NCBI GenBank assembly: GCA_000004985.1
Contig: GG738850.1
Strand: one strand, 5' to 3'
Source: Naegleria gruberi
Taxonomy: Eukaryota
Length of the DNA stretch: 64,000 nt
Part shown: positions 37,682 through 64,000 of the stretch, one piece after another
How the letters are laid out: the number at the start of each line of letters is the position of its first letter
Position numbering within the stretch: position 1 is the first letter of the stretch
Made by a program: the position numbers and the translations under genes
Notes under the pieces: generated by a model
What the model was told of the DNA's origin: nothing
Seen by the model: only the letters and a program-made list of their open reading frames with translations
Database searches by the model: none

Positions 37682-39850
37682 ATGGAAAATCCAGAACATT
37701 TAACTATTAATCGAATTAATAATAATAATAATAGAGGCTCATTGATGATGATGAGGGTAAATTCATCCCCATTATCGCCCAATACTACTACTGGCTCAAC
37801 AGCTTCAGCAACATCACCATCGACGACGTTGAACGATTCGAATTTATCTTTGGATGAACTTGATTCGTTAAGTAGTGCATCTTCGATGCATTCGAATACA
37901 ATACTATTGAATCAATTTGTGGCAGCCGCTTCTAAAAAGACAAGAAAGAGTAGACCTACTAGTAATGACAGTATTGATGGGTTACCTCAAATTGGAATTA
38001 CTAATGAATTTGGAAATGTAAAGAGAGTAGCAAGTCCTCAGGAGGATGAAGAAAGTTTTGTGATGAGTGATTCTTCAAAGAGTGGAATGACCAGTAATAC
38101 ATCGAGGTCTTCCTTCTCTTCAATGAATTCTTCATTCTTTGAGGAGTTGGAGGCACAATTTATGAATACATCGAGGTCAATACACTTGATTCATTTATTA
38201 TTGCATCCAGTGACAAAGGAATTATTCAGACAATACTGTATCAAGACGAGGGTTTGCGAGCTCTTTGATTGCCTGGAGGAAATTAGATTGTATTATGTGG
38301 CAATCGATACATTTAAAACACAATCTCATAAGAGAAAGATTGAGGAAATGAAACATTTACTCAACACGAATCAAAATTCTCCCAAGATCAGTGCCTCCTC
38401 TGAGAATATGTCTGTTTCTTCTAGTACTGATTCTCTTAAAAGGAAGAATAGAATGTCATTATCAGCGAGTGGTACCAAACTCTTTTCAAACAAACGTCAA
38501 TCAGTAGCTCTCCTCTTTAATAATAATAGTAATTTGATGGAATTATTGCAGGAGAAAATTCATCAGGATAAGAATATGGATGAGGAAATTTCATTTATGG
38601 GATTATTTTCACTTGGAACACAGGAAAAGGATCAAATTACAATAGAAGATATATCAAAAGAGGAGAGGGATTCCCTCAAGGAAAAGGCACAGAAAATATT
38701 CGACTCTTTTCTCTCTCCCAAATCAAATAGAGAAGTCAACATTGATAGCACACTCCGTTCTTCAATAGAGACCAACTTGAAAAATCTCGATTCAGACCAC
38801 TCTCTGTTTGAGAAACTTTATGAGGAATTACGTCTATTAATTCTAAGACAACTCAAAACTGACGTGTTGTTCAGGTTTGAAAAATCATCAGATTGGACCA
38901 CCTTCCTCTCTGATACTCATAATGTTTCAGTGGTGGAACAAGTTATGGATTATAGTAACTCTGTTTGGTCAGCCAATGCAGATTTTGGAGGATTTAAACG
39001 AATGACCAAGAGGGATTGTGTCAGAGATTATGTCAAAAAGGAAGACTTTTCATTCATGAAACATGTTTTATTTGCACCTCTTCCACATTGGAAAAATCTT
39101 ACAAATACCAAAGCAACCAATTCTCCCTTCTCAACATCCTACTCGAAGGGAAAGTACTTCATTGATCAAGAATCAATTCGATTGAAATTTGGATGTCTCA
39201 AAGAAACAGCCACTCTTCCTTTCAGTGCTGAGGAAGTTTTTGCAGCCATTCACTCTAAACTCTTCCAATCCATCACAGATGACACTCTCAATGTCGATGA
39301 CTCGATATTTTGTCTCAAGAGCTTCTCTCACCGTGTAGTAGAAGGTATTCTACCAACTGACATAAGCAAGTTTTCTTTCAATTTGCCAATTCCACTTTCA
39401 AATCAAAGAGGTTGTTATCAAGCTCACTCTACAATTTATGAACCAGAGTCGAAACGATATTATTATTTCAGCAAACCAATTCTATTCAATGAAAATTACT
39501 CTTTCGAAAAAGAGTCTGTACAGTGCTATTCATTCAATATGGTTTGTGTGGAAAAGGTTGATGACAGAAATTGTAAATACTACAGTGCTTTTATATCCAA
39601 CTTTGGAGGAATTTTGAAACACTTCTCCACCAAGGTTTTTAAGAGAATTGCTTGGAAACGATCGAGTCAAACTCGAAAGTCTATGATAGAAAAGCTCACT
39701 GAAAATCGAGATAGTTTATACAATAATACTAGAGATGGCTACGACACTTGTCTGGATAATCTCAAGAGGTATCAATCATGCTCCAATATTTCACTAGATT
39801 TCCCAAAAACCTTTTCAGAGTTTCAAGAACGATTTTGCAAATACTATTAA
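37682..39850 (+). CDS. RGS-domain protein (soluble; S/T-rich N-terminus; RGS domain split by a long insert).
   Basis: LLLHPVTKELFRQYCIKTRVCELFDCLEEIRLYY (RGS N-subdomain). ...AQKIFDSFLSPKSNREVNIDSTLRSSIETNL...LFEKLYEELRLLILRQLKTDVLFRFEKS (RGS C-subdomain). Confidence 0.65.
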   Translation: MENPEHLTINRINNNNNRGSLMMMRVNSSPLSPNTTTGSTASATSPSTTLNDSNLSLDELDSLSSASSMHSNTILLNQFVAAASKKTRKSRPTSNDSIDGLPQIGITNEFGNVKRVASPQEDEESFVMSDSSKSGMTSNTSRSSFSSMNSSFFEELEAQFMNTSRSIHLIHLLLHPVTKELFRQYCIKTRVCELFDCLEEIRLYYVAIDTFKTQSHKRKIEEMKHLLNTNQNSPKISASSENMSVSSSTDSLKRKNRMSLSASGTKLFSNKRQSVALLFNNNSNLMELLQEKIHQDKNMDEEISFMGLFSLGTQEKDQITIEDISKEERDSLKEKAQKIFDSFLSPKSNREVNIDSTLRSSIETNLKNLDSDHSLFEKLYEELRLLILRQLKTDVLFRFEKSSDWTTFLSDTHNVSVVEQVMDYSNSVWSANADFGGFKRMTKRDCVRDYVKKEDFSFMKHVLFAPLPHWKNLTNTKATNSPFSTSYSKGKYFIDQESIRLKFGCLKETATLPFSAEEVFAAIHSKLFQSITDDTLNVDDSIFCLKSFSHRVVEGILPTDISKFSFNLPIPLSNQRGCYQAHSTIYEPESKRYYYFSKPILFNENYSFEKESVQCYSFNMVCVEKVDDRNCKYYSAFISNFGGILKHFSTKVFKRIAWKRSSQTRKSMIEKLTENRDSLYNNTRDGYDTCLDNLKRYQSCSNISLDFPKTFSEFQERFCKYY

Positions 39851-40911
39851 AAATCCAACAATCTTCCAAAATCATGAATTCTTCTTACAAGCAGAGCCAT
39901 CAAGGATCTTCCTCTCATGAACACAGATGTATCGTTTTGACAATTTGAAATGATGAGATATCTATTATCTGCCACAGTTGCCAAGAGTCTGAACTCTTCG
40001 TCTCCAACATTAAAAGTAGCTCTCCACACTGAATATTGATCGTAGCCCTTCTTTAGGAGCATTAAAACCATTTCCTTCTCTTCTGGAATTGTACATTCAT
40101 GACCAAGAAGTGTTACTGTTGCAGGAGAATTTCCCTCGTGTGGTCTTAGATGTATTGTATTGAATAACTTGGTAAGATCTTCTTCGGAGGGTATTTGTTT
40201 CTCCTCTTCTGCATTTAATGGTTTTGGCCAATAGCCTAAAATTGCATGTTCCTTAGAATCGAATATGAGAGCTTGCTTAGCTCCACTAAAATCACCTGAT
40301 TTGATCAAGTGATTCTTGAGGAAGATTGGATATCTTGAATGAGCTTTGGCATCATATTGGTCTACAGAAAATGACTTTTCCAAAGTTAATTTTACACTCA
40401 CTGCCTCATTAGGATTAGAAACAAGTTTTGGATCACCATCTTCTGCTCTTCCCAAGAAAACATGAGGTCTCACATCATTTCCATCACCAATTCTAAATAT
40501 CAAATCTTCAGTATTTGAGAGATTGATATCTTCTGAACAATTTTCAAAAGGCTTTGATCTCCTCACAATATAAACTTCCTCCTCTCCCTTAGCACAAACA
40601 TAATCATGAACACAATCCAAAGTATGTCCTTGTTGCCCTGCAACAACCATAAAATCTTCCGATCGTATCTCCCTAAAGCAAACAGCTTCTCCATACCTAA
40701 CACTTCTCAAGCCATCAGAAAGCAAGCCTCCAGGCAAGGTGATAGAAAAGCACAAACCCTTAAAGTTGATGGTATCATAACGTTCAAAGAAATACAACTG
40801 CTCGCCTCCCTTACCAAATACAAAATCATTTCCTAGGTTTGGTTCCTTACCGGGAGCTTCAAAGAATTTGAGATGGACACTTGAGCCAATTAAGAGTTCT
40901 TGTGGAGACAT
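39847..40911 (-). CDS. Conserved-looking hypothetical protein (354 aa).
   Basis: Long ORF; its 3' end overlaps the stop of the upstream RGS gene by 4 bp (convergent). Confidence 0.5.
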   Translation of the reverse strand: MSPQELLIGSSVHLKFFEAPGKEPNLGNDFVFGKGGEQLYFFERYDTINFKGLCFSITLPGGLLSDGLRSVRYGEAVCFREIRSEDFMVVAGQQGHTLDCVHDYVCAKGEEEVYIVRRSKPFENCSEDINLSNTEDLIFRIGDGNDVRPHVFLGRAEDGDPKLVSNPNEAVSVKLTLEKSFSVDQYDAKAHSRYPIFLKNHLIKSGDFSGAKQALIFDSKEHAILGYWPKPLNAEEEKQIPSEEDLTKLFNTIHLRPHEGNSPATVTLLGHECTIPEEKEMVLMLLKKGYDQYSVWRATFNVGDEEFRLLATVADNRYLIISNCQNDTSVFMRGRSLMALLVRRIHDFGRLLDF

Positions 40912-41101
40912 TTTTTTTAAAGTTTAATAAAGAAGTTTTCCCGCCAAAATCGTAAATCAACAAAATATTTAAAGAGATTTCTATCTGCCTAGTAATAATA
41001 AATTCTTGTAAAATCCCACTAAAATTGAATTTCAAACAATTAAACTCAATTTCCTCCTCGTTTATTACATGGTTTCATTAGTTTCGAAAAATCAATGTAA
41101 A

Positions 41102-41175
41102 GCCGTCATAGCTCAGTTGGATAGAGCACAGGACTTCTAATCCTGGGGTCGTGGGTTCGAGCCCCATTGTCGGTA
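41102..41175 (+). tRNA. tRNA-Arg (anticodon UCU).
   Basis: Cloverleaf is GCCGTCA/TA/GCTC-AGTTGGATA-GAGC/A/CAGGA-CTTCTAA-TCCTG/GGGTC/GTGGG-TTCGAGC-CCCAT/TGTCGGT/A. A-box TAGCTCAGTTGG and B-box GGTTCGAGCC. One T-T mismatch in the acceptor stem. Confidence 0.85.
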
Positions 41176-41180
41176 TCTGA

Positions 41181-41185
41181 TTTTT
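41181..41185 (+). terminator. Pol III terminator T-run downstream of tRNA-Arg.
   Basis: TTTTT 6 nt after the tRNA 3' end. Confidence 0.5.
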
Positions 41186-41482
41186 GTGCATTTGTTTTTA
41201 AGTTTTCAAAATATCTTATTATTTTAATTTCTTTTTCATATGATTATTATTCAACTTCACTAATATTGAGTGGTTCTAGCCATTATTAGCCAATTTTTTC
41301 TTTTTTTTATGAAAGAAACAAGAAGCAGCATGGAAGCTAACAAAAGGATTCCTCTCCAGTTGGTTTCCAATATTAGTTCGCCCAACTGTTCTTCACCCAT
41401 AAGACACCAAAGGTTACCTTTAATGAGTGTTCAATAATAAGGGCTTAGGTTCGTTCTCTTCTCATAAAAAGATGTTAAACAA

Positions 41483-43255
41483 ATGCTTAGCCAAGCAGCT
41501 TTGAAAAAAACAATGCAACTCAATTACCTTTTGTTTGGAAAGCAAAGTGGTGTTGACTTGCATCCACTCAAAGTTGTTACCAGCGATGGTTTCATTCAGT
41601 TTAATTCTGCATCACTTTCTAATAACAATGCTCATCATTCGAATAGACTATTCTTCTCTTCACTCAACAAAACCAGAATAATAGTTTCAATTCTAATAGT
41701 TGTCATCCTCTTTATTCTTCTGAGACACTTCACCTCTCCAAAACATCAACAACATGCCATCTTTCTAGAGTTTGCCAAATTATTAACAAATCCTTCAAAC
41801 TCAATTGACCAAACCAGAGAAGGAACCTACGCTTGGTACAGGTACCAGTTAGAAAAGAACAATAGATTGGGTAACACACTCTTCAAAGACCCAATCATGA
41901 CAAGATTAGGTTTCCAGTCAACCTCCACAACAAGTAAAGAGTTGTTTCACTACTTTCGAACATTTAAAACCAAAGAAAAGTGTTCGAAACAACATACATG
42001 TAAAATTTATGCAGACAAGACAGCTGGTGAGTTCTTAGAAGAAGGTGTACCATTGGATGCTGTTCTTCATCATTGTTTCTATGGAGAACCTTTCTTTTTG
42101 AATTCACTATTGGATGAAGCATCAATTGTGAAGGAATTTCAACATGAAATTGTGGATTCGAATGGAAAATTGAAACGAAACGAAATGTTTACTCATGCGC
42201 AGGATATTCTATTACATTCCCATAGGATGGACGAAAGCCAAGGCGAGAAAATGTGGAGAGGAATGAGAAGATTGTCACTTCTCATGTGCAGTGAAGCTGT
42301 CGTTGTGAATCAACTTGAAAAATTATCACAAAATCCAAATTCACTCCTTCCTCAAATGTCAATGGAAAAATTTGCCCAGTCAACTGCAGATATCTCAATT
42401 TGTTTTCTTTCTACATGCTCTGTTTGGGTTAATTATCAATATAATTACATGTCTCTTTCAAATTCTGATAAATTTGGTACGAAACCCTTCTCCAAAAATA
42501 AGGGAATTTGCTCCTTCATTTCCAATTGTGATAGAGGAGGAACAGAACTCAAACAACGTTATGAACTATTGCAATATCTTTCCAAGTACATTCCAGTGAA
42601 ACAATTTGGCAAATGTGGCAAGAATTCACAAGAAGGAAAAGGCGGGAAACCTTTCGAATTGGAAAATAATTGTCGATTCTATTATGCAGCTGAGAATTCC
42701 ATTACAAAAGATTATGTCACTGAGAAATTCTTTGAAGGAATCAAAGCACTGGAAAATGGAGCTAGAATGATCATGTTGTATCGTGGGGCTCCAAATTTGA
42801 GAATTGATTTCGGATTTCCAAAGAGTTTGTTTATTGACCAATCGGATTTCCAATCTGTTGATGAATTGGGAAGATTTTTGAAGAAACTAAATGAAGATGA
42901 TCAAGCATTTGAGGAATATTTCAATAGAATGATTATTCAGGAAAGAAGCAAAGTCGATAGTGCACTTGCTGGTTTCGAATATCGTTTAGGTTCGAATATT
43001 CCATGTAGAATTTGTAAGATAATAGGACAAATGAAATTGGCAAGATATCTATTATTCAAAATTGGATTCCAATCAACAAATAGACCAAAAATTAATTTGA
43101 AAGAATGGAATAATTTCAAATATCAAAGATTTTCATCTTTTTCAGCCGAACGATTGAAAATTCTTGATGAAATTTATTATTATGGATACGAAATCTTTCA
43201 TAAGGAGAATAACAATCAGAATGAGTTTGGTCGTGGTTGGAACTTTGATAATTAA
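41483..43255 (+). CDS. Alpha-1,3-fucosyltransferase (GT10 family), type II membrane protein.
   Basis: TM IIVSILIVVILFILL. GT10 motifs ...CSFISNCDRGGTELKQRYELLQYLSKYIPVKQFGKCG... and RFYYAAENSITKDYVTEKFFEG (compare FUT YKFYLAFENS...DYITEK). Confidence 0.75.
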   Translation: MLSQAALKKTMQLNYLLFGKQSGVDLHPLKVVTSDGFIQFNSASLSNNNAHHSNRLFFSSLNKTRIIVSILIVVILFILLRHFTSPKHQQHAIFLEFAKLLTNPSNSIDQTREGTYAWYRYQLEKNNRLGNTLFKDPIMTRLGFQSTSTTSKELFHYFRTFKTKEKCSKQHTCKIYADKTAGEFLEEGVPLDAVLHHCFYGEPFFLNSLLDEASIVKEFQHEIVDSNGKLKRNEMFTHAQDILLHSHRMDESQGEKMWRGMRRLSLLMCSEAVVVNQLEKLSQNPNSLLPQMSMEKFAQSTADISICFLSTCSVWVNYQYNYMSLSNSDKFGTKPFSKNKGICSFISNCDRGGTELKQRYELLQYLSKYIPVKQFGKCGKNSQEGKGGKPFELENNCRFYYAAENSITKDYVTEKFFEGIKALENGARMIMLYRGAPNLRIDFGFPKSLFIDQSDFQSVDELGRFLKKLNEDDQAFEEYFNRMIIQERSKVDSALAGFEYRLGSNIPCRICKIIGQMKLARYLLFKIGFQSTNRPKINLKEWNNFKYQRFSSFSAERLKILDEIYYYGYEIFHKENNNQNEFGRGWNFDN

Positions 43256-43301
43256 AGTTTAGTATTAACTATTTCACAAACGAAAGCTCAATAATATTAA
43301 T

Positions 43302-45011
43302 TCAGATTACGTTTGCTTTCGAAATTTGTGTTACACTTTCTAATCTTGTCAATGTTTGAAAATCAACTCGTCCCTCTCTTTCTCTCCACTCCTCCAATAC
43401 TATTCGAATCTTTTCATTCGACTGCCTCAATCGCTCTAAAACATCCTTCAAAGTGAGAAGAGTTTGAATTTGAACCTCCTCAAACAATTCATCAGATAAT
43501 TCATCATCACACATGGCACTATTAATTTTCAGCAAGATATCCTCCCTAATTGCATTCATATTTGGTAAATTCAATTCGTACACTCCTCCAGGTGTCAAGT
43601 AACAATTGATTATTTCCAGAGCCACTAATTTCCTCTTCTTAAAGTTATTGGCCTGTTTAAACTTGGAAATGTCCTTGTATACGAGAACTCCTTCAGGACA
43701 GAATGATCTCCTCGAATATTCCAATAACATTTCACAAGTTTCATTCTTATTGAGAATGAACTCCAATTCATTACTAAATATTTCAACTTTTCTCAAATCT
43801 TTTGCAATGGCATACAGAACTGGTAAGGTCACCGTTATGAAAATCTCAATCGTACAATACGAAACCATAACCAATCCTGATGGAAACACATGATCAATCA
43901 TTTTGAAGAAATCCATAGCCAAACACGTATAAATAATAGCTGCACTAATTTGAAGAACCATTGTAACAATAGTCTCCACTTTGATATAGTAGGTATCCTT
44001 TTCAGTTTTCAACAACCAAAAGAACGCAAACAGTTCAATTGCTATGTAAATCACATATAGAATGAGGATGGTTATGGTGGTTGGAAATAATGTGTAACAA
44101 CCTCTTAGGGAGATCATGGCAGCTTCTTGCATGATAAATCTTGCATTTGAAAAGAAAGATTCCTCAATCACTGCAAAAACAAACCAAATCAAAGTTTGAA
44201 TTCCGTAAATGGTAATAAATATAAAAATTGACCACTTTTTTGAATGTACTATATAATGTGCCTTTCTAAGTAAGAGTTCTCTCTTGTCAATATTATTGTG
44301 TAAATCCAAATATTGTTTAAATTCCTTCAGTTTCTGTTGAGGTACTGAGATTAGTCCAGTTGGACTTGTAGGTGAACTTGTGAGCGAAGATGGACTAGTT
44401 GGAGATCGTGATAGACTTTCCACCGAAGGTATACTATTCAATTCTTCATTATTCCTATTCGATTCCTTACAATTTTCATCCAGTTCATTTTTTCTCAATT
44501 CATTTTCCTTAAAATTTTGAGCTTTAAACCAATTTACTCTCCACTGTGTATAAACTCTCACATTTCTCAAAGTATTTGGTACTGTATAACTTGCTGGCAT
44601 TACAAAAAACATTAAACTATAAACTAAACATGGAAACAAATCTCTGCCAATCATGTATCTCAACGAATAAACACTCACTATTGAAATACTCGATGCAATT
44701 GTGAAATACATGCCTGCTGTTGATCGTGCAATGATGTGAGTCGAATTTCTCTTCCATATGAACCCAAAAATTGAAAGAGTCACTAAGCAAATGTAAAATA
44801 CGAAAGCAAACCCTGCAAGAATGGGAACCGAAATGGCATCCGGGCATTGGTTAGGAATGTTTCGTTGTCGAGGGACAAGAGTAAGGGAAAGTAACCATGA
44901 TTCGCATTCTGTAGCATTGCTGTTGTTTATAATTGTATTATTGGTTTGTTGCCTTGTAGAATTGATTTCGTATATTGTTTCTAATAATTTGCTTGCATGT
45001 TGATTCATCAT
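43302..45011 (-). CDS. Seven-transmembrane receptor-like protein with C-terminal RGS domain (7TM-RGS).
   Basis: Seven hydrophobic segments (ISVPILAGFAFVFYICLVTLSIFGFIW ... GLVMVSYCTIEIFITVTLPVLYAIA). Then CEMLLEYSRRSFCPEGVLVYKDISKFKQ...LVALEIINCYLTPGGVYELNL...ELFEEVQIQTLLTLKDVLERLRQS (RGS). Confidence 0.7.
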   Translation of the reverse strand: MMNQHASKLLETIYEINSTRQQTNNTIINNSNATECESWLLSLTLVPRQRNIPNQCPDAISVPILAGFAFVFYICLVTLSIFGFIWKRNSTHIIARSTAGMYFTIASSISIVSVYSLRYMIGRDLFPCLVYSLMFFVMPASYTVPNTLRNVRVYTQWRVNWFKAQNFKENELRKNELDENCKESNRNNEELNSIPSVESLSRSPTSPSSLTSSPTSPTGLISVPQQKLKEFKQYLDLHNNIDKRELLLRKAHYIVHSKKWSIFIFITIYGIQTLIWFVFAVIEESFFSNARFIMQEAAMISLRGCYTLFPTTITILILYVIYIAIELFAFFWLLKTEKDTYYIKVETIVTMVLQISAAIIYTCLAMDFFKMIDHVFPSGLVMVSYCTIEIFITVTLPVLYAIAKDLRKVEIFSNELEFILNKNETCEMLLEYSRRSFCPEGVLVYKDISKFKQANNFKKRKLVALEIINCYLTPGGVYELNLPNMNAIREDILLKINSAMCDDELSDELFEEVQIQTLLTLKDVLERLRQSNEKIRIVLEEWREREGRVDFQTLTRLESVTQISKANVI

Positions 45012-45164
45012 TCAAGAGATGTTGTCGTATTTTATTTTAAACTTATGATATCATTGATAGTATATCTCTAAGCTTCCAATAAAAAAGGAGTCTGATTTAC
45101 TCCATCAAGAAACACATCAATTCACGTAATGAGTTTTTGACGTTTTTATCTCTTATTCGAAACA

Positions 45165-46467: not shown

Positions 46468-46707
46468 CTACGCCTCCAACTAACTTCCAACTTACTTCCA
46501 TTACAATAAAAATCCAAGTATTAACAATGTCATCAACAGCCCTTCACAAAACCACCCCCAAAATACATCCTCTCTATATTATCGAACTTTCCATTTGATT
46601 TCCTCAACAATTCACTTCACACAAAGCCTCCTCTCAACTCGATGTCAAATCCAATAAATATCCACCAACAAAAACCTCAATTTCAAAAAATATCCGATTA
46701 AAAAAAA

Positions 46708-47622
46708 ATGTTGTACGGTATTGGCACCTCACCTTCATACGGCACAACCTCCTCACAATATCAAGTCAGTTTTGACTCGATGAGTGAGAAGTTTAATGAA
46801 AACTTCCCGATCATTTTGCAACAACGTATTCATCCGCAAAATTTCTCTGAAACGATGAATCATTGTTCAAAGATTATGAAGGAACAAATGGCAAATATTC
46901 AAACCTCTAGATGGATGGGATTGTTGGTCTTTTTTGTTGTTTTCTTCTGTACTCTTGCATTGACTGGTATTCCATTGTTGGTTTATTTCTTGGCCTATGC
47001 TAATAATGATAATAGTGATCCGACTGGTGGTATTGTAAGTTGATTATTTGTTGATCTGATGATGAAATTAATTGAATTTAATATTGACTTTAATATTGAA
47101 ATAATGATGATGATGATTGTAATTTGATGAAATATAATATATTGTGGAAATTAGTGGGTATGGATTCTCTTCCCACTCTTGTATGTCTTTTTTATTATTG
47201 TCCTCATTATGTGGTCAGTTAGAAGAAGACGTCAAATCATCAATTCACATGCTCAATGTAAAACTGCTCTTACTAATTATTTGGAACATGAAAATCAAAC
47301 AATTTATAATAGAGCTGGAGTTCAATTAGTATTGAGATATGATACCAGAATTATTATGACAAATCGTTATACTATTGCTTTGACTTACAAGTATTTGATG
47401 GTATTGCCTTGTATTGATGTTTATATTGCTGGAAACACACCTGTTGTTGTTAATCAAATTCAACCTGTTATCCAACAACCTATTGTCCAACAACCAATTA
47501 TCACTCAACCAGTTACTTATGATCCAAATGCTTATGGTGGTTATCAACAAGCTACTACTGTTTACTCTCAACCAACTCATCAATATGAAAAGGTTGACAA
47601 TCCTAACCAACCATTATTGTAA
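46708..47622 (+). CDS. Small two-TM membrane protein with Q/P-rich C-terminal tail. Exons are 46708..47034 and 47155..47622, with a 120-bp intron.
   Basis: Exon 1 ends ...DPTGGI at a GTAAGT donor. The TTAG acceptor continues WVWILFPLLYVFFIIVLIMWSVRRRRQ... in frame with the downstream ORF. Confidence 0.6.
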
Positions 47623-47742
47623 ATTATTAATAATACATTTTTATTATTGATTTACAATTTTAGTAATTTTCCTTAAATATATGAAACCCAGATCTACGTA
47701 GATTCAACAGTATTGAAAAGGTGAAATTTCATTGTTAGAAAA

Positions 47743-50352
47743 ATGTTTGGAAATGAAACCGTTTCGAGTATGGAGGACATGAATGGCAGCTCAACCAACA
47801 AACCAACAGTCGCACAAGCATCATCATCAACTGATAAGAAGTTTTCAATTATTGTAACGAATGAGGAATCAAAAACCTCAACAGATGTGAATCTAATGGT
47901 GGATCCGCCACTTTATGAAATTGCAAATGAGAATAACCATCTACATACTACCAATATTGTCAACTCGAGAAGACCCTCTAATAACAGCACTACCTCATCA
48001 ATGATACATCCCATTCATGCCAAACCACATCCAATCTATGGCAGAAGGGATACCATCTTTACCTTTGATGAGGTAATCACTCATTTGCCAGAAGGAACTA
48101 ATCAAACTAATCAGCAGCAGCAACTGCCAAGCATTGAAGTGAATGAAAAGCAAAATCCCACACCAGGCAGCAACAATAGTGGGAATTTATTATTTGGATA
48201 TTGTGGGAGAGGAGTGAGGATTAGTCATGTACTATTAATTCTGTTCATCATTCAAGGATTGGTTGGATTGGTTCCATCCCTCATTCTCATGTACACGAGT
48301 GGAAATAGTATTTTGGAAAGAGTTTCTAAATTCCAGGCACAACAAACTCAAACCTATGTGAATTTTGAGATTAGTCGAATTGTTAATACTTCACAATTAG
48401 TCATTCAACATATCAGATTTGAGTTGGAGAATGGATTTACACTTTCAAACCTCACAGAAATGACTTTATTTGCAACTTATTTGAGGAATCTTTATGTGAA
48501 TAGATCTCCACTCACGGCTGTTCAATTTGGCATGTTTATGGATAATTATGTTGGTACATTAGATATTCCTCCAATTTATCCACCAGTAATTGAATATTTG
48601 AATGGGACTGGAGATTTATTGTATCACTATAGATTAGAAGAAGATAGCATCGAAAATCCCTTGCAAGATCGATACCTTTACAATGTTGAACCTTTCAGAT
48701 TCAAACCATCCCATAGACCTTGGTATGTGCCATTTACTCTCCCAAATGCAACAGAAAGAAGATGGTCAGAAATTTATGTTTCCACATTTGGACAGCTCTC
48801 TATCAATACTGCAATGCCTGTCTTTGTAAAGGAGAATATTACAGCTGCAGTATTGTCAGGGAAACCAATTGATCAGTTTAATTTTCAAATATGTGATTGT
48901 AACCACCCTGATCACTTGTATGGAGTATTTGGAGCTCTGTTCGCACTCAAAGGACTCAATTCATTCCTCAATGACACTTCAAGACCTTACAGCTTTATTA
49001 GTTACAGTTTTATTATGCAAAGAAATGGATCTGTCATTGCATCGAGTAGACATAACACGACCACATCCAGTAGCATTCTAGAAGAAGAGGAAGAGATTGA
49101 TCAAGTTGCAGCCTATATTATCAATCTAGGTCTATTCAAAAATAGTACAATTCCAGGTGAATGCACTTTCAAATTTAGAGGAAAGAATGTAGCCATAACA
49201 CCAGTCTATGATAATTATGGACTTTCTTGGGCTATTGTCATTGGATCTAAGGATGCAGATATTTTAAAAGAGCTACTATCGAGTGGAATGACTTCAGTTG
49301 TGGTTTTTATTGTCATTTTAGTTGCAGGATCCTTAGCATTATTTGTGACTGTACAGTTGTTTGCTCAGCCATTAAATAACGTGCACAGAAAGCTTTCTAA
49401 AATTTTGAGTGACAAGAATCTATCAAAGGATTTGTCAAATCCAAAAATTACAACTGCTGGACTGATTTTCTTTGATATTGGAGAAATGGAAAATGGAATT
49501 AATTCGCTCAAGAGAGGAGTTTCAGCATTTTCTAAATTTATTTCACCAACAATAATGAAAAAAGTTATTAGAAATGAACATTATTTGGATGTTGGAATGA
49601 TAATTCAAAACATGTCAATTTTGGTTTTAAGTATTAGTAATTTCTCTCAATTAGCAGAACAAACTGATATTTCTACATTTGTTTCATTAATGACTGATTA
49701 TTTTGGAAGTTTGACAAAGGTGATGGAAGATCATCGTGGATTAATTGACATGATTACAGGCGAAAGATTGCAAGTAGTGTGGAATGACTCATCCATGCCT
49801 GTTGAAGAACATGAAGTGAGAGCATGTAAAGCTGCAATGGAAGCTATAGAAGTTGTTGAAGAATTGAATAACACCTGGATAAAGGAGAAACATTTGGAGA
49901 TGGATTTTTCAGTGTGTATGAGTATTTCGAGTGGAAATATGATGTATGGTAGCATTGGAAGTGAGCATCGATTGAATTTCACAGCCATGGGAGATGATGT
50001 CAATATAGCAGTAAAGTTGGCAAATCTCAATCCACATTATGAGGCCGATATTCTCATTACTGAAAATACCTATCAACATGTAAAGAATGAATTTGTTTGT
50101 TACTTTGTGGACTATATAATATTGAATGGAAAGGAAAGTCCAACCATGATCTACAGTTTGGAATGTGAAAGAAGTGTTGCTAGTGACCTTCAGGTAAAAG
50201 TAGCAACAGATTTGGAATTGGCACGTAACTATTGGTTCCAAAACAATTATAGAGCCATGTACGATATTTGTGAAAGATTGAGTCTCATTTCTCATTCAAA
50301 AATAATTAATAATTTATTGTTAAAAGCAAAAAGAAAAATTACACATAATTAA
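47743..50352 (+). CDS. Receptor-type class III cyclase-homology-domain protein (TM, ~330-aa extracellular sensor region, TM, then cyclase homology domain). Catalytic residues look partly non-canonical.
   Basis: TMs VLLILFIIQGLVGLVPSLILMY and VVVFIVILVAGSLALFVTVQLF. CHD is ...MSILVLSISNFSQLAEQTDISTFVSLMTDYFGSLTKVMEDHRGLIDMITGERLQVVW...FSVCMSISSGNMMYGSIGSEHRLNFTAMGDDVNIAVKLANL...ILITENTY. By eye, metal Asp1 is replaced by Ser, Asp2 by Glu, and the transition-state Arg by Lys; the Asn is kept. Confidence 0.65.
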   Translation: MFGNETVSSMEDMNGSSTNKPTVAQASSSTDKKFSIIVTNEESKTSTDVNLMVDPPLYEIANENNHLHTTNIVNSRRPSNNSTTSSMIHPIHAKPHPIYGRRDTIFTFDEVITHLPEGTNQTNQQQQLPSIEVNEKQNPTPGSNNSGNLLFGYCGRGVRISHVLLILFIIQGLVGLVPSLILMYTSGNSILERVSKFQAQQTQTYVNFEISRIVNTSQLVIQHIRFELENGFTLSNLTEMTLFATYLRNLYVNRSPLTAVQFGMFMDNYVGTLDIPPIYPPVIEYLNGTGDLLYHYRLEEDSIENPLQDRYLYNVEPFRFKPSHRPWYVPFTLPNATERRWSEIYVSTFGQLSINTAMPVFVKENITAAVLSGKPIDQFNFQICDCNHPDHLYGVFGALFALKGLNSFLNDTSRPYSFISYSFIMQRNGSVIASSRHNTTTSSSILEEEEEIDQVAAYIINLGLFKNSTIPGECTFKFRGKNVAITPVYDNYGLSWAIVIGSKDADILKELLSSGMTSVVVFIVILVAGSLALFVTVQLFAQPLNNVHRKLSKILSDKNLSKDLSNPKITTAGLIFFDIGEMENGINSLKRGVSAFSKFISPTIMKKVIRNEHYLDVGMIIQNMSILVLSISNFSQLAEQTDISTFVSLMTDYFGSLTKVMEDHRGLIDMITGERLQVVWNDSSMPVEEHEVRACKAAMEAIEVVEELNNTWIKEKHLEMDFSVCMSISSGNMMYGSIGSEHRLNFTAMGDDVNIAVKLANLNPHYEADILITENTYQHVKNEFVCYFVDYIILNGKESPTMIYSLECERSVASDLQVKVATDLELARNYWFQNNYRAMYDICERLSLISHSKIINNLLLKAKRKITHN

Positions 50353-51383
50353 ACCTTATTAGATTTGGAAAGTAGTGTTTGATTTTCATGAGATTCTTCC
50401 TCAGAACCATACGATAACTCAGAGTCATCTGTGTGATGGTTATTGTTACTGGTACTGTATTGAGAAGATACAGGACGACGAGCCATTTGAATATCCATCT
50501 TTCCAATTCTATTTCTTTCTTGTTCAAATTTCTTCTCAGCACGATATGCATTCACATTATCAACAATGGCCTTGATGAGCAGGGAAATCAACATGATAGC
50601 AATAATGGGTCCAAACATTGTAACCATAGCAACTGGAACATTAGGATTATGAATGGTTGTCTTGCAATATTGGAAAATCATATTGGTTGCAGTGAATCCA
50701 GGAGTAAATGTTTGCATACTTTTCAGTTCAGCACCATTCTTGAATAGAATTGTTGTTTCAGGACCTTCGGAACTTGATTTAGCTGATCCACCTCCAAAAG
50801 TTTTGACATTTGAAAGTAAACTTGTTGGATAAATGACTGAAACTGAAATGTCCTTAATTACTTGAGCAGGATCATTGCCTACAGACCATAGGAATTTTGT
50901 TGAATTTTTAAACGAGAAGAAAGGTCCTCTAATCGAATATTTGTATTCGATTGTAAAAATTTGCATAGTATCAACTTGTTTTGAAAAATCTATCTGAATG
51001 TAGTGATTCTTGCTGTTTGTTGTCGATTTATACACGTCAACATCAACTATTTTGTTACTTGTTGTTGAGACTATTATTGCCGAAACTTGTTCCACATTAT
51101 TTCCAAATGGCATACCCACAGGCAGATTTCTAGTAATTGTCTTGGTTTTACTATCAAAAATATAAGAAACTCTTTCTGTTACTTTCGCAACACACAACAA
51201 ATCACTATTCAATTTAATTTCGGATTCAAATTTTGTTATTGAATAATCTTGTTGTGTAGAATCTTGTACGAAAAGTAAAATAATTACTAGTATAATACAA
51301 AGAGAGAGAAAACCTCTTGTTCTTCCAATGATCCGATCATCATATTTTGAAAAATGTCGTCCCCTGATGATGATTGTAGACAT
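50349..51383 (-). CDS. Hypothetical type I membrane protein (signal/anchor, ~250-aa ectodomain, TM, acidic/S-rich tail).
   Basis: 344-aa ORF. FLSLCIILVIILLFV near the N-terminus and VAMVTMFGPIIAIMLISLLIKAI near the C-terminus. Convergent with the cyclase-like gene, overlapping it by 4 bp. Confidence 0.5.
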   Translation of the reverse strand: MSTIIIRGRHFSKYDDRIIGRTRGFLSLCIILVIILLFVQDSTQQDYSITKFESEIKLNSDLLCVAKVTERVSYIFDSKTKTITRNLPVGMPFGNNVEQVSAIIVSTTSNKIVDVDVYKSTTNSKNHYIQIDFSKQVDTMQIFTIEYKYSIRGPFFSFKNSTKFLWSVGNDPAQVIKDISVSVIYPTSLLSNVKTFGGGSAKSSSEGPETTILFKNGAELKSMQTFTPGFTATNMIFQYCKTTIHNPNVPVAMVTMFGPIIAIMLISLLIKAIVDNVNAYRAEKKFEQERNRIGKMDIQMARRPVSSQYSTSNNNHHTDDSELSYGSEEESHENQTLLSKSNKV

Positions 51384-51834
51384 TTTTTTAAAATGATGAA
51401 ATTTCAGTGACTTGTCCTGACATGATTTTTGGAGGTAATTTGATGAAAAACTCTCAAATCACTCCTCATTAGTCAGTTGGTAATTTTGGCTACAATGCGA
51501 ATATCAAATTTAATTCATCATGTTTTTATTAATATTAAACTGAATTGTAGTGTAAAGTGTTGTTTTTGTTGGATGGTGCTACAATAATAATCAAATATTT
51601 TCATCATCAAATGATTATTATTATTTTAATTAAAAAATTAAATATTTTAATCATCGGGATGAAATAATCAATCAAACGATAAATTGATCAAACCTCATAT
51701 CCGTGAAAGACAAATCAAGTCCAAATAAGAACAATGGATATGCGTTCTTCACAGCTTCAACCTTTGAAAAAAACAAGACGATTTGCTTGCTGAAAATCTT
51801 CTTTGCTCACGGAATCTTTAATTTATTATTTATT

Positions 51835-52597
51835 ATGGCATCACATTGGCAACAATATATTGAAAGGTAAGGAATATTTGAATTCTATGATGATGGATGA
51901 ATATTGTAAAATTATTACAAAATATTTAATATAATATTATAGTAATATTGTAAAATCTAGGTTTTTTACTCATGGAGCAATACACGGACTGAATGGAGCT
52001 AAATGGGCACAATCAGATGGATTGGAAATTACTAAAAAACAAGTGAAGGAATTGTTAAAGATTTTACAAGATGAAAAGTTGTCATCACCACGATTGATTA
52101 ATAGTTTGGTTTCGAATTCACAAGCACTTACTAATGTATCAGAGAAATCTTCCATCTTTTCAAATTCAGGTGATTTATCATTAGTGGTGGAAAATGATGA
52201 ATTGAAACGAAAATTATCAAATCTGTCACAGATCAGTACATCACTGGGTAATGTGGGATTGGAAATTAATTTCAATGGAAATCAAATGTTTAGAGTTGTA
52301 AATGTTGACAAGTATTGTGCCTTATTAGCTTGTTGGAATTTTGGAGATTCGGATAATGCTTCGTCAATTCCATTTTGTAAAGTATTTAATGTAGAAAAGG
52401 GAGAGTTCTTAATACCTCCAACTCATGTATTTTATTGTGTAACCACTAGTATGTGTATTCTGATAGGTTTGGTGAATAATTCATGTGTATTACCAGAAGA
52501 TCATCATAATAATCAAGCCATAGAATTGACAAATTTTGATGTGGCTATGAAAACATTGGACAAGTTTGCAGATTACTTATTGGAATCTGGGTACTAA
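51835..52597 (+). CDS. Profilin-like protein (long form, ~222 aa). Exons are 51835..51866 and 51961..52597, with a 94-bp intron.
   Basis: MASHWQQYIER|FFTHGAIHGLNGAKWAQSDGLE resembles the profilin N-terminus (MSWQxYVD...G...WAQS). The C-terminus ...MKTLDKFADYLLESGY resembles the profilin C-terminal helix (...LGDYLLEQGL). GTAAGG donor, CTAG acceptor, phase 2 consistent. Confidence 0.5.
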
Positions 52598-53101
52598 AAC
52601 AATTTGGTACACTACTAGGAAACTAATTTATTAAAACGACAATTATTTGTTGTAGTTTGATGCAAGATCACATTAGGTTTTTTAGCAATTACAATAATTA
52701 CAATGTATTGTGTCCAAGAATTCTAATGGACAACCACGGTTGATTTTTACTAACACTTAAAGATCTAGATTACTCCCTCTGTCCAGAGCTGCCTGCATAG
52801 CACATTCACTGTCAGTTTTCAATTGTTGATGGTATTTATTGTTCGAATATGGCAGGGCATTCAAAAATTGTAATTTGACGATTCGAAGGGTCCTTTAGAA
52901 AGTCTTATCCATCAAGAAAAAAACGAGAAAAGATCTGTCACAAGGTTTTGCTTATCAACCATATCACAAGCAGTACAGTCGAAATTTTCACAACTGTAGG
53001 TTGGCCAACCATGATTTTTTGTTGTTAATAATATTTGATGGTTTCTTTCGGATATAATTTGACAATGTGGATATTGACAATCTCTCTTCATGGATTAACA
53101 G

Positions 53102-54586
53102 TTGGAAATGATGAGAACACCATCATCTCCACCGACCAACAGCAACTCACCACAACAAGCTAGTATTCTTCTCAACAACAATATTTCTACAAATGTTTCC
53201 TCTTCGAATAAGAAAGTTACTATTTCATCATCAGCAGAGCCAATAGCAATGAACCAATCACAAGTTAATCTTGCCAATCCGAGTGAAAGTGGCAAGTCAG
53301 GAAGTTCGTTTAGTCAAAGTAAGATTACATTTCGTACATGTTGTGGTGTAATTGAGCTGACTTCTATGAAGTTGGCTTGTTTATTTGGAATGTTAGTCAC
53401 TGTTATTGGATTATTAGTTTTGGCTGGTGTTGCAGTTGCAGCCTTTATTACTGCAACTTCCAAGTCGACTGAAATTTTAATTTCTGTTGGCAGAGTTACT
53501 TCACAATTCGAAGGTGCTAATGCCATAATTGTCAGATATGTTTTCGCAGGAACAGCTGAAACATATTCAACAACTTTGGCTACTTATAAGAAATCCTATC
53601 TTGCTCTTCAACAAAATTTGACAAACATTCTGGCAAATCTTAATGATCCTCAAATAGAGACAATTTTCAATTCCACAGCCATAACTGCTGTAAATAATGT
53701 GGATTCCCTAAACACTATGATGATGTATATGGCTGGTGGAGTAACTAACACTCAGCGATCTGATGCAATTGAAAAACTCAATAGTGAAGTTTACAAAAAT
53801 TATTTTACTACTTTCCGTTCAGGTTTGGATGAATTAGTGACCTATGTGCAAGAAAAGGAACAGGTAAAAGATCAGAATATTTTGGCAATCACATTGGTGC
53901 AGCTCATTATTATTGTACTTTCATTATTTGTCATTTTGCCTATCATTATATTTGTGTTTACATATGCCATTAATCGTGACTCGTTATATTTGGAAAAGAT
54001 TCGTCGTGCTAATGCAGTCATGTTGATGGATACAATTGAGGATGAAGGTTTGAGAGCTCTTTTCAAGGTTCATTGTGAAAAGGAAAAGTCGAGTGAAAAT
54101 TTCCTACTCCTTGAAAAGATTCAATATTATCGTTCTTTGTGTGAACGTTCTATAGATTTACAAATGAGATTATTTGGTCAGGATGCCGCTATAAGTGATG
54201 CTCTGAGTGATATTTCGGCAGATTCATCTCACTCCTCAAAGAAAAAGAAGGAATCTCCATTAGAAAGAGAATATAACGAATTGGAGGCAAAGAAGTATGA
54301 AGTTGCTTTTGAAATATTTACTGAATTTTTGGAAGTAACTGGTGATATGGCTGTCAATGTTTCAAAGGTTCTTACAGATTTTGTGAAGGATAAACTTGAC
54401 AAGTTCAATGACAAACAAATTGATACCCTGCCAGAGGACATGTTTGATATTTTAGGAAAAGAAACATGTCTTGTCATGATGGATACTCACCATAGATTCA
54501 AACAATCTCTTGCATTCCAACGTGAAATGAAGATTGACAAGATAAAGGTAGACCAGATAAAAAAGAAAAGGAATATAGAATTTTAA
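53102..54586 (+). CDS. Two-TM sensor-like protein with C-terminal RGS domain (TM, ~170-aa extracellular helical region, TM, RGS).
   Basis: TM1 LACLFGMLVTVIGLLVLAGVAVAAFITA. TM2 ILAITLVQLIIIVLSLFVILPIIIFVFTYAI. RGS is LMDTIEDEGLRALFKVHCEKEKSSENFLLLEKIQYYRSL ... YEVAFEIFTEFLEVTGDMAVNVSKVLTDFV...LVMMDTHHRFKQS. Confidence 0.65.
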   Translation: MEMMRTPSSPPTNSNSPQQASILLNNNISTNVSSSNKKVTISSSAEPIAMNQSQVNLANPSESGKSGSSFSQSKITFRTCCGVIELTSMKLACLFGMLVTVIGLLVLAGVAVAAFITATSKSTEILISVGRVTSQFEGANAIIVRYVFAGTAETYSTTLATYKKSYLALQQNLTNILANLNDPQIETIFNSTAITAVNNVDSLNTMMMYMAGGVTNTQRSDAIEKLNSEVYKNYFTTFRSGLDELVTYVQEKEQVKDQNILAITLVQLIIIVLSLFVILPIIIFVFTYAINRDSLYLEKIRRANAVMLMDTIEDEGLRALFKVHCEKEKSSENFLLLEKIQYYRSLCERSIDLQMRLFGQDAAISDALSDISADSSHSSKKKKESPLEREYNELEAKKYEVAFEIFTEFLEVTGDMAVNVSKVLTDFVKDKLDKFNDKQIDTLPEDMFDILGKETCLVMMDTHHRFKQSLAFQREMKIDKIKVDQIKKKRNIEF

Positions 54587-54645
54587 AGAAATTATTAGTT
54601 GTACAAATTTAGAGCTAGGAGTTTTGATAAATCAATTGACCATAA

Positions 54646-63604: not shown

Positions 63605-64000
63605 TTAGGGTTTGGGTTGGGTTTGGGTTTGGGTTTGGGTTTGGGTTTGGGTTTGGGTTTGGGTTTGGGTTTGGGTTTGGGTTTGGGTTTGGGTTTGGGT
63701 TTGGGTTTGGGTTTGGGTTTGGGTTTGGGTTTGGGTTTGGGTTTGGGTTTGGGTTTGGGTTTGGGTTTGGGTTTGGGTTTGGGTTTGGGTTTGGGTTTGG
63801 GTTTGGGTTTGGGTTTGGGTTTGGGTTTGGGTTTGGGTTTGGGTTTGGGTTTGGGTTTGGGTTTGGGTTTGGGTTTGGGTTTGGGTTTGGGTTTGGGTTT
63901 GGGTTTGGGTTTGGGTTTGGGTTTGGGTTTGGGTTGGGTTTGGGTTTGGGTTTGGGTTTGGGTTTGGGTTTGGGTTTGGGTTTGGGTTTGGGTTTGGGTT
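63605..64000 (+). repeat. Telomeric repeat array (TTTGGG)n. First unit is TTAGGG, with two TTGGG variants. The G-rich strand runs 5'->3' to the window end, so this is a right chromosome end.
   Basis: About 65 tandem 6-mers from 63605 to the last base. Confidence 0.85.

What the first reader, a model, noticed from the sequence alone, without database searches (positions are those of the whole stretch)
37682..54586. Three RGS-domain genes of three different architectures within 17 kb
37682..39850 is a soluble protein with a split RGS domain. 43302..45011 is a 7TM receptor fused to RGS. 53102..54586 is a TM, extracellular helical domain, TM, RGS protein. RGS domains are GAPs for G-alpha subunits, and membrane-anchored receptor-RGS fusions are rare. 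Three paralogous-function genes so close together suggest a local expansion or cluster of G-protein regulators.
Basis: partly seen in the sequence, partly recalled or inferred. Interest (0 to 1): 0.6.

Follow-up and report, generated by a model that had tools for sequence, protein, structure and literature searches.

The report
Three unrelated RGS genes, Naegleria subtelomere
Three real G-protein "off-switch" (RGS) genes of three different designs sit within 17 kb near a chromosome end of the amoeba Naegleria gruberi, but this genome carries over 200 RGS genes, the three are only distant relatives, and such a grouping is expected by chance.

Summary
The window is Naegleria gruberi NEG-M, at the telomeric end of a 707,703-bp scaffold.

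The "local expansion/cluster" reading does not hold.
- The three RGS domains are only 22–29% identical to each other.
- ORF2 and ORF3 have much closer paralogues (48–70%) on other scaffolds.
- N. gruberi is reported to have 229 RGS proteins. A simulation gives about 0.75 such triples per genome by chance, with P(≥1) about 0.5.
- The two N. lovaniensis homologue loci I could fetch share no other gene with the window.
- Receptor-RGS fusions are not rare in this genus: N. fowleri has 28 7TM-RGS proteins, some shown to be Gα GAPs.

What is worth keeping:
- ORF3's ectodomain is predicted to be a four-helix bundle. Its best structural matches are bacterial chemoreceptor and histidine-kinase sensor domains, so the protein looks like a chemoreceptor with an RGS output. 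The family is multi-copy in Naegleria, with a Willaertia member.
- ORF1 is buried in a chimeric GenBank model.
- The 7TM-RGS gene appears to be unannotated.

Overall this is an ordinary finding with one moderately interesting architecture.

The parts
37682..39850 (+). ORF1, 722 aa. Soluble RGS protein with a split RGS domain and a conserved C-terminal region with no Pfam match.
   Evidence: ORF. No hydrophobic segment. Pfam RGS 41.4 bits. A 99%-identical 721-aa ENA protein and a N. fowleri orthologue share its own C-terminus.
38174..38335 (+). ORF1 RGS N-terminal half (about aa 165-218).
   Evidence: Once the insert is removed, the Pfam match extends to profile positions 3-112 at 51.8 bits.
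38336..38635 (+). ORF1 low-complexity Ser/Asn-rich insert that splits the RGS domain (aa 219-318).
   Evidence: The intact protein matches only profile positions 34-112.
38636..38890 (+). ORF1 RGS C-terminal half (aa 319-403), with the equivalents of RGS4 Asn128, Asp163 and Arg167.
   Evidence: Pfam match. Alignment to RGS17. Residue mapping.
38924..39847 (+). ORF1 C-terminal region of about 300 aa, conserved between Naegleria species, with no Pfam match.
   Evidence: Many invariant columns in alignment A4. No Pfam hit at E<=10. No PDB sequence hit outside the RGS part.
41102..41175 (+). tRNA-Arg(TCT). It lies inside the supposed intron of the chimeric GenBank model that joins ORF1 to the fucosyltransferase.
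   Evidence: ARAGORN. Chimeric model P0031 = EFC48679.1.
43302..45011 (-). ORF2, 569 aa. A 7TM-RGS receptor-GAP, apparently missing from the GenBank gene set.
   Evidence: ORF. Pfam RGS 28.9 bits. AF2 model pLDDT 79.7. No identical sequence in the collections.
43788..44831 (-). ORF2 seven-helix transmembrane domain (aa 61-408). It has a long loop of about 100 aa between TM3 and TM4 on the predicted cytoplasmic side. Cys128 (start of TM3) and Cys305 (second extracellular loop) are conserved.
   Evidence: Hydropathy. AF2 helices. Foldseek matches to class C GPCR transmembrane domains. C305 invariant and C128 nearly invariant in 30 sequences. Four N-glycosylation sequons at aa 17-34.
43377..43775 (-). 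ORF2 C-terminal RGS domain (aa 413-545).
   Evidence: Pfam. Family profile against RGS10, E=2.4e-12. Foldseek to RGS4/RGS16, TM 0.79-0.83 at 1.9-2.8 A.
47743..50352 (+). Neighbouring 2-TM adenylate/guanylate cyclase (869 aa = EFC48682.1). It has the same sensor-like topology: TM, ectodomain of about 320 aa, TM, catalytic domain. It is context only, not shown to be functionally linked.
   Evidence: Pfam Guanylate_cyc 37 bits. Two TM segments. Exact match to EFC48682.1.
53102..54586 (+). ORF3, 494 codons from the TTG. The GenBank model EFC48684.1 starts at the ATG at 53111 and is 491 aa. Architecture: TM, four-helix-bundle ectodomain, TM, RGS.
   Evidence: ORF. 100% match to EFC48684.1. AF2 model pLDDT 74.8.
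53363..53455 (+). ORF3 TM1, preceded by an invariant cytoplasmic T-C-C-G motif.
   Evidence: Hydropathy peak 2.83. AF2 helix 85-115. Invariant T76 C77 C78 G79 in 21 sequences.
53465..53860 (+). ORF3 extracellular four-helix bundle. It resembles bacterial 4HB chemoreceptor and histidine-kinase sensor domains.
53870..53980 (+). ORF3 TM2, continuous with a long helix that runs into the conserved juxtamembrane segment AINRDSLYLEKIRRANA.
   Evidence: Hydropathy peak 3.44. AF2 helix 226-310. Conservation.
54032..54523 (+). ORF3 RGS domain with a Ser-rich insert.
   Evidence: Pfam 22.9 bits intact and 34.8 bits with the insert removed. Foldseek hits to RGS domains. Equivalents of RGS4 S85, E87, N88, N128, D163 and R167 are present.
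63608..64000 (+). (GGGTTT)n telomere-type repeat at the window end. It places the three RGS genes 9-26 kb from a chromosome end.
   Evidence: TRF: 65.8 copies, 98% matches. Sequence read directly. TTTGGG is the reported candidate N. gruberi telomere repeat (PMC3622300).

Best explanation
The window is the telomere-proximal end of a Naegleria gruberi NEG-M scaffold. It carries three genuine RGS genes that diverged long ago. They are members of the very large RGS repertoire of this genus and lie near each other through gene density and chance, not through tandem duplication or a dedicated cluster.

Likely function (inferred): each RGS domain accelerates GTP hydrolysis on one or more of the many Naegleria G-alpha subunits.
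- ORF2 is a 7TM-RGS 'receptor-GAP' of the kind characterised in N. fowleri and in plants (AtRGS1). A GPCR-like seven-helix domain would hold the RGS domain at the membrane and, on ligand binding or internalisation, change its access to self-activating G-alpha.
- ORF3 is a different receptor-GAP design. An extracellular four-helix bundle sits between two TM helices. TM2 continues as one long helix through a conserved juxtamembrane segment toward the RGS domain. Ligand-induced helix displacement could therefore be passed to the GAP domain, as in bacterial chemoreceptors and sensor kinases.
- ORF1 is a cytosolic RGS protein whose RGS fold is interrupted by a disordered loop. It is followed by a conserved C-terminal region with no Pfam match.

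Shown here: the domains, the topology, the family relations and the lack of clustering signal. Inferred: GAP activity, ligand regulation and signal transmission.
For: Organism: ORF3 is 100% identical to EFC48684.1, and the cyclase and other ORFs match NEG-M proteins exactly.

RGS domains. RGS folds.

G-alpha-contact residues: the equivalents of RGS4 N128, D163 and R167 are kept in all three proteins. A Glu aligns with E87 in each. The ORF2 N-terminal half aligns differently in MAFFT and HMMER, but a Glu falls at E87 in both.

7TM. The TM3/ECL2 cysteines are conserved.

4HB ectodomain.

Families:
- The ORF2 family has 185 representatives at E<=1e-3, from N. gruberi, N. lovaniensis, N. fowleri and unnamed environmental sequences.
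- The ORF3 family has at least 6 N. gruberi paralogues plus N. lovaniensis and Willaertia members.

Not duplicates of each other: 22-29% identity, and only weak cross-hits between family HMMs.

Chance expectation: 229 RGS proteins reported in N. gruberi (PMC3971589), and the simulation gives 0.75-1.6 such triples per genome.

Precedent for GAP function: N. fowleri 7TM-RGS domains accelerate GTP hydrolysis on Nf G-alpha subunits (PMC9283941).
Against: - No biochemical or expression data exist for these three genes.
- RGS4 N88 is replaced in ORF1 (Leu) and in ORF2 (Gly or Met, depending on the alignment). Some RGS domains are known to have lost GAP activity.
- The chance calculation assumes uniform placement of RGS genes. 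I could not map the other 226 genes, so a real subtelomeric enrichment is not excluded.
- The synteny test used the best available N. lovaniensis homologues, which may be paralogues rather than positional orthologues.
Confidence: 0.8

Rival explanations
1. Subtelomeric accumulation. The three RGS genes are together because chromosome ends in Naegleria collect members of multigene families through ectopic recombination. On this reading the grouping is non-random but not functional.
For: A telomere-type (GGGTTT)n array lies at 63608-64000. The ORFs at 56103-57386 and 57546-58145 have copies at >=90% identity on three or four other NEG-M scaffolds. ORF2 and ORF3 both have several paralogues on other scaffolds.
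Against: The RGS paralogues are only 48-70% identical, so they are not part of a recently shared subtelomeric block. I could not retrieve the other scaffolds, so the position of the paralogues relative to telomeres is unknown. Chance alone already accounts for the trio.
Confidence: 0.15
2. A functional signalling island. The three RGS genes, the neighbouring 2-TM cyclase and the BTB_2 gene would be co-regulated parts of one G-protein/cyclic-nucleotide pathway, kept together by selection.
For: Three RGS genes, one sensor-type cyclase and a BTB_2 tetramerisation-domain gene lie within 17 kb.
Against: Unrelated genes are interspersed: a GT10 fucosyltransferase, a DUF2207 protein, a tRNA and an Erf4-like gene. 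Orientations are mixed. RGS genes (229 reported in N. gruberi) and cyclases (80 reported in N. fowleri) are so abundant in the genus that co-occurrence is expected. The N. lovaniensis homologues of ORF2 and ORF3 are on different contigs with entirely different neighbours.
Confidence: 0.04
3. Local tandem expansion. The three genes arose by duplication in place, followed by domain shuffling.
For: They share an RGS domain and lie close together. The inserts in ORF1 and ORF3 appear to interrupt the RGS domain at a similar point.
Against: Identity is 22-29% with marginal E-values. ORF2 and ORF3 have far closer relatives on other scaffolds. The architectures outside the RGS domain are unrelated.
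Confidence: 0.01

Closest known systems
Naegleria fowleri 7TM RGS proteins (Bosch, Jeck & Siderovski 2022, PMC9283941) and plant AtRGS1
   Same: ORF2 has a seven-helix membrane domain followed by a C-terminal cytosolic RGS domain. It has N. fowleri and N. lovaniensis homologues annotated as RGS-domain proteins. The G-alpha-contact residues are kept.
   Different: ORF2 has a short N-terminus without the EGF, lectin or GPS modules reported for some Nf 7TM-RGS proteins. It has a loop of about 100 aa between TM3 and TM4. The RGS motif 'SFCPEG' replaces the usual 'SEEN'. The 7TM part hits no Pfam family and no PDB chain by sequence. I could not test homology of the 7TM part to AtRGS1.
Bacterial four-helix-bundle (4HB_MCP/TarH-type) sensor domains of chemoreceptors and histidine kinases
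   Different: The output is a eukaryotic RGS domain, not a HAMP/MCP signalling domain or a kinase. Sequence similarity is not significant (TarH E=0.021, below the Pfam cut-off). Common ancestry is not shown, and dimerisation and ligand are unknown.
TM-anchored RGS proteins of diverse eukaryotes (de Mendoza et al. 2014, PMC3971589)
   Same: That paper reports RGS fused to one or more TM helices in most lineages, and a large RGS expansion (229 proteins) in N. gruberi.
   Different: The specific 2-TM architecture with a 4HB ectodomain is not described in any text I could search. Anantharaman et al. 2011 was not available to check.
Canonical R4/RZ-family RGS proteins (RGS4, RGS10, RGS16, RGS17)
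   Same: They share the RGS fold and the key G-alpha-contact residues. They are the best sequence and structure matches of the RGS parts.
   Different: ORF1 and ORF3 carry inserts (about 100 aa and about 30 aa) that appear to fall at a similar point in the domain. All three proteins have additional, unrelated domains.

Membership tests
RGS domain (Pfam PF00615) | Profile score at or above the curated gathering score (23.9 bits). | tested here: met
   ORF1 scores 41.4 bits, or 51.8 with the insert removed. ORF2 scores 28.9. ORF3 scores 22.9 intact (just below the cut-off) and 34.8 with the insert removed. The ORF2 family profile hits RGS10 at E=2.4e-12.
RGS domain (Pfam PF00615) | All-helical RGS fold that superposes on solved RGS domains. 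| tested here: met
   ORF2 model: TM 0.79-0.83 at 1.9-2.8 A to RGS4 and RGS16. ORF3 model: TM 0.65-0.76 to SNX13, RGS8 and RGS4.
RGS domain (Pfam PF00615) | Conservation of the G-alpha switch-contact residues (RGS4 E87, N128, D163, R167). | tested here: met
   N128, D163 and R167 are conserved in all three, and a Glu aligns with E87 in each. N88 is kept only in ORF3.
RGS domain (Pfam PF00615) | GTPase-accelerating activity on a G-alpha subunit. | not testable with these tools
   This needs recombinant protein assays. The precedent is N. fowleri only (PMC9283941).
7TM-RGS receptor-GAPs (AtRGS1 / Naegleria 7TM RGS) | Seven transmembrane helices N-terminal to the RGS domain, with the N-terminus outside and the RGS domain cytosolic. 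| tested here: met
   Seven hydropathy peaks. Seven AF2 helices. Four N-glycosylation sequons clustered in the N-terminal 34 aa.
7TM-RGS receptor-GAPs (AtRGS1 / Naegleria 7TM RGS) | GPCR-like fold of the membrane domain. | tested here: inconclusive
   Foldseek matches class C GPCR transmembrane domains with probability 1.0, but E=0.015-0.03 and TM 0.33-0.48. Conserved TM3/ECL2 cysteines are suggestive. There is no sequence-level match.
7TM-RGS receptor-GAPs (AtRGS1 / Naegleria 7TM RGS) | Sequence homology over the full length to other Naegleria 7TM-RGS proteins. | tested here: met
   Full-length hits in N. gruberi, N. lovaniensis and N. fowleri, for example P0034 over aa 13-547 and P0042 over aa 24-540.
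Bacterial 4HB_MCP / TarH sensor domain | Up-down four-helix bundle located between two TM helices. | tested here: met
Bacterial 4HB_MCP / TarH sensor domain | Significant sequence-profile match to the family. | tested here: not met
   Pfam TarH scores 15.2 bits, E=0.021, against a cut-off of 25.2. I therefore do not file ORF3 as a member. The resemblance is in fold and topology only.
Tandemly duplicated gene cluster | Neighbouring genes are each other's closest paralogues. | tested here: not met
   Identity between the three is 22-29%, against 48-70% to genes on other scaffolds.
Tandemly duplicated gene cluster | Local density of family members beyond the chance expectation. | tested here: not met
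   0.75 triples per genome are expected, with P(>=1)=0.51. The expectation is 1.6 when counted over 10 consecutive genes. The calculation uses the published count of 229.
Tandemly duplicated gene cluster | Linkage conserved in related species. | tested here: not met
   The N. lovaniensis homologues are on different contigs, and no other window ORF matches within +/-10 kb of either. Caveat: orthology is not established.

The most novel reading that the evidence does not exclude
The ORF3 family (TCCG motif, TM1, four-helix-bundle ectodomain, TM2, long helix, RGS) could be a distinct, undescribed class of eukaryotic receptor-GAP. It would sense extracellular ligands through a chemoreceptor-type 4HB module and pass the signal by helix displacement directly to an RGS domain. 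That would control self-activating G-alpha subunits without any 7TM receptor. The family appears confined to heteroloboseans, and the sensor module might be of bacterial origin.
Probability: 0.2. Interest if true: 0.55.

Novelty: new member of a known kind. Interest (0 to 1): 0.25.

Why it matters
As a cluster, it matters little. It illustrates how a very large gene family (229 RGS proteins reported in N. gruberi) produces apparent clusters by chance.

Three practical points remain.

1. The reference annotation is wrong at this locus. One RGS gene is fused to a fucosyltransferase across a tRNA and an antisense gene. The 7TM-RGS gene seems to be missing altogether. Published counts of Naegleria RGS and 7TM-RGS genes are therefore probably underestimates.

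2. The 2-TM four-helix-bundle RGS family gives a second, simpler design for testing how an extracellular signal can regulate a GAP. This bears on the open question of how G-protein signalling is controlled in organisms with self-activating G-alpha and few GPCRs.

3. Naegleria G-protein components have been proposed as drug targets for the pathogenic relative N. fowleri.

Tried and rejected
Calls that returned nothing useful:
- Exact-sequence look-ups of ORF2, P0001, P0004 and P0028 in the contig index found nothing. N. gruberi scaffolds could therefore not be fetched. The positions of the paralogues and genome-wide RGS mapping were not possible.
- Anantharaman et al. 2011 is the paper most likely to describe these architectures. 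It is not held.
- The afdb50 fold library was unavailable. I could not ask whether the 4HB-RGS architecture exists outside Heterolobosea.
- Single-sequence and family-profile searches of ORF3 against PDB sequences gave no significant RGS hit. The RGS call for ORF3 rests on Pfam after insert removal and on fold matching.
- ORF1's C-terminal 300 aa has no Pfam hit at E<=10 and no PDB sequence hit.
- The supplementary TM-count data of de Mendoza et al. are not held.

Ideas rejected:
- Tandem duplication.
- A functional island.
- Membership of ORF3's ectodomain in TarH.

One alignment caution: MAFFT misaligned the N-terminal half of ORF2's RGS domain. I used the HMMER alignment to RGS10 for that part.


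Full report
**Source of the window**

The window has about 34% G+C and long, intron-poor ORFs. ORF3 is 100% identical to N. gruberi NEG-M protein EFC48684.1/XP_002681428.1, which lies on a 707,703-bp scaffold. The neighbouring cyclase and three other ORFs also match NEG-M proteins on that scaffold exactly. The right end of the window (63608-64000) is a 98%-pure (GGGTTT)n array. TTTGGG is the reported candidate telomere repeat of N. gruberi (PMC3622300). The three RGS genes therefore lie 9-26 kb from a chromosome end.

**Check of the observation**

All three ORFs are present as described. Pfam RGS (PF00615) has a gathering score of 23.9 bits.

| ORF | Intact protein | Insert removed |
|---|---|---|
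| ORF1 (37682-39850, +) | 41.4 bits, profile positions 34-112 only | 51.8 bits, positions 3-112 (aa 219-318 removed) |
| ORF2 (43302-45011, -) | 28.9 bits | not applicable |
| ORF3 (53102-54586, +) | 22.9 bits, just below the cut-off | 34.8 bits, positions 5-116 (Ser-rich insert removed) |

- The ORF1 result confirms a split RGS domain.
- A profile of 30 ORF2 family members hits RGS10 at E=2.4e-12.
- Many ORF3 family members carry a precomputed PF00615 assignment.
- AlphaFold models built from family alignments superpose on solved RGS domains. ORF2 (pLDDT 79.7, pTM 0.70) matches RGS4 chain 1agr_H at TM 0.83 and 1.9 A. ORF3 (pLDDT 74.8) matches RGS domains at TM 0.65-0.76.
- The equivalents of RGS4 N128, D163 and R167 are present in all three, and a Glu aligns with E87 in each. 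N88 survives only in ORF3. The RGS4 reference sequence came from my memory and was checked against its well-known residue numbers.

**Topology**

- ORF1 has no hydrophobic segment.
- ORF2 has seven hydropathy peaks and seven modelled TM helices. Four N-glycosylation sequons cluster in the first 34 residues. This fits an outside N-terminus and a cytosolic RGS domain.
- In ORF2, a nearly invariant Cys at the start of TM3 and an invariant Gly-Cys in the second extracellular loop recall the GPCR TM3-ECL2 disulfide.
- Foldseek aligns the ORF2 membrane domain with class C GPCR transmembrane domains. Probability is 1.0, but E-values (about 0.02) and TM-scores (0.33-0.48) are weak. No Pfam 7TM family or PDB chain matches by sequence.
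- ORF3 has two strong TM segments.
- In the ORF3 model, TM1 leads into an up-down four-helix bundle. The last bundle helix continues through TM2 and a highly conserved juxtamembrane segment as one long helix (226-310) toward the RGS domain.

**Is it a cluster?**

- The three RGS domains are 22-29% identical pairwise, with marginal E-values. Family-specific HMMs cross-hit only weakly.
- ORF2's nearest relatives are EFC46152.1 (70%) and a 48% paralogue, both on a different 536,960-bp scaffold. A further family member lies elsewhere on the same scaffold as the window.
- ORF3 has five N. gruberi paralogues at 65-68% and two at about 30%, spread over six other scaffolds. It also has N. lovaniensis and Willaertia homologues.
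- ORF1 has a 46% N. fowleri orthologue.
- N. gruberi is reported to have 229 RGS proteins (PMC3971589). N. fowleri has 28 7TM-RGS proteins, 79 other RGS proteins and 80 cyclases (PMC9283941).
- I placed 229 genes at random in 41 Mb. This gives 0.75 triples as tight as this one per genome, with P(at least one)=0.51. In gene-order terms (3 RGS genes among 10 consecutive genes of 15,727) 1.6 are expected.
- In N. lovaniensis the best homologues of ORF2 and ORF3 lie on different contigs. No other window ORF has a match within 10 kb of either.
- The ORF2 homologue there happens to lie 4 kb from yet another, unrelated RGS gene. This shows how dense the family is.
- No further RGS is present in the window.

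**Most likely explanation**

These are three independent members of a very large family that lie together by chance, possibly helped by their subtelomeric position.

- Each RGS domain probably acts as a G-alpha GAP. This is inferred from residue conservation and from the demonstrated GAP activity of N. fowleri 7TM-RGS domains.
- ORF2 is a typical Naegleria 7TM-RGS receptor-GAP.
- ORF3 looks like a chemoreceptor with an RGS output.
- ORF1 is a cytosolic RGS protein with a conserved C-terminal region of about 300 aa that has no Pfam match.

**Comparison with what is known, and novelty**

7TM-RGS proteins, TM-anchored RGS proteins and the Naegleria RGS expansion are all published. The genes come from a published genome. 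I did not find the 2-TM 4HB-RGS architecture described in the searchable literature. The most relevant paper was not available.

I rate the finding a new member of a known kind, with low overall interest. The 4HB-RGS family is the part worth following up.

**Annotation issues found on the way**

- GenBank model EFC48679.1 (1216 aa, named 'fucosyltransferase') splices ORF1 onto the GT10 ORF at 41483-43255.
- That splice jumps over an antisense 354-aa ORF and a tRNA-Arg gene.
- A 721-aa ENA protein and the N. fowleri orthologue both end at ORF1's own stop. The fusion is therefore an artefact.
- Accession numbering leaves room for only one minus-strand model between 33 and 57.5 kb.
- Four good minus-strand ORFs lie in that interval: the 7TM-RGS gene, the antisense 354-aa ORF, the DUF2207 gene and the GDSL lipase. 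None of them is in the protein collection as an exact sequence.
- No near-identical full-length model of ORF2 was found either. ORF2 is probably unannotated.

Noticed in passing
window 63608-64000: A 393-bp array of (GGGTTT)n, 98% pure, runs to the window end. TTTGGG is the candidate N. gruberi telomere repeat (PMC3622300), so the window ends at a chromosome end.
   Followed up: partly
window 56103-58145: The ORFs at 56103-57386 (EFC48685.1) and 57546-58145 (EFC48820.1) have >=90%-identical copies on three or four other NEG-M scaffolds. This suggests a subtelomeric block shared between chromosome ends. Neither has a Pfam match.
   Followed up: partly
window 37682-43255: GenBank model EFC48679.1 (1216 aa, NAEGRDRAFT_46450, 'fucosyltransferase') is a chimera. 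It joins ORF1 (RGS) to the GT10 fucosyltransferase ORF, skipping ORF1's stop codon, the antisense ORF at 39847-40911, a tRNA gene and the GT10 N-terminal membrane anchor.
   Followed up: yes
window 41102-41175 (+): A tRNA-Arg(TCT) gene lies between the antisense ORF and the fucosyltransferase gene.
   Followed up: no
window 39847-55536, minus strand: Four substantial minus-strand ORFs are absent as exact sequences from the protein collection: 39847-40911, the 7TM-RGS gene at 43302-45011, the DUF2207 gene at 50349-51383 and the GDSL lipase at 54646-55536. GenBank accession numbering leaves room for only one minus-strand model between 33 and 57.5 kb. The reference annotation seems to have dropped most minus-strand genes here.
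   Followed up: partly
window 47743-50352 (+): An adenylate/guanylate cyclase (EFC48682.1) has a bacterial-sensor-like topology: TM, ectodomain of about 320 aa with no Pfam match, TM, catalytic domain. This is the same layout as ORF3 with a different output.
   Followed up: partly
window 45165-46467 (+): Three consecutive + strand ORFs probably form one intron-containing gene. It has a coiled-coil N-terminus and a BTB_2 (potassium-channel tetramerisation type) domain.
   Followed up: no
window 53324-53335 (ORF3 aa 75-78 in 491-aa numbering 76-79): An invariant T-C-C-G motif lies just before TM1 on the cytoplasmic side in all 21 ORF3 family members. It is a plausible S-acylation site, but this is not tested.
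   Followed up: no
window 12976-23971: Two very large genes encode EGF-repeat proteins. One is 2182 aa with REJ and PKD-like domains, and the other is 1190 aa. They are adhesion/receptor-like surface proteins.
   Followed up: no
window 23982-27374 (-) and 29085-31711 (+): A sodium:neurotransmitter symporter (SNF) gene and an RCC1-repeat gene are each split into two adjacent ORFs. The cause is presumably an intron, or possibly a frameshift.
   Followed up: no
L002:15837-17366 (N. lovaniensis PYSW02000037.1): A further RGS gene of another architecture lies only 4 kb from the N. lovaniensis homologue of ORF2. It has an N-terminal region with a CxxC motif and a C-terminal RGS domain. It is another example of chance RGS adjacency.
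   Followed up: partly
P0028 (N. fowleri orthologue of ORF1): The N. fowleri model lacks about 65 residues of the C-terminal RGS half that are present in ORF1. The cause is probably a mis-predicted intron in that annotation.
   Followed up: no
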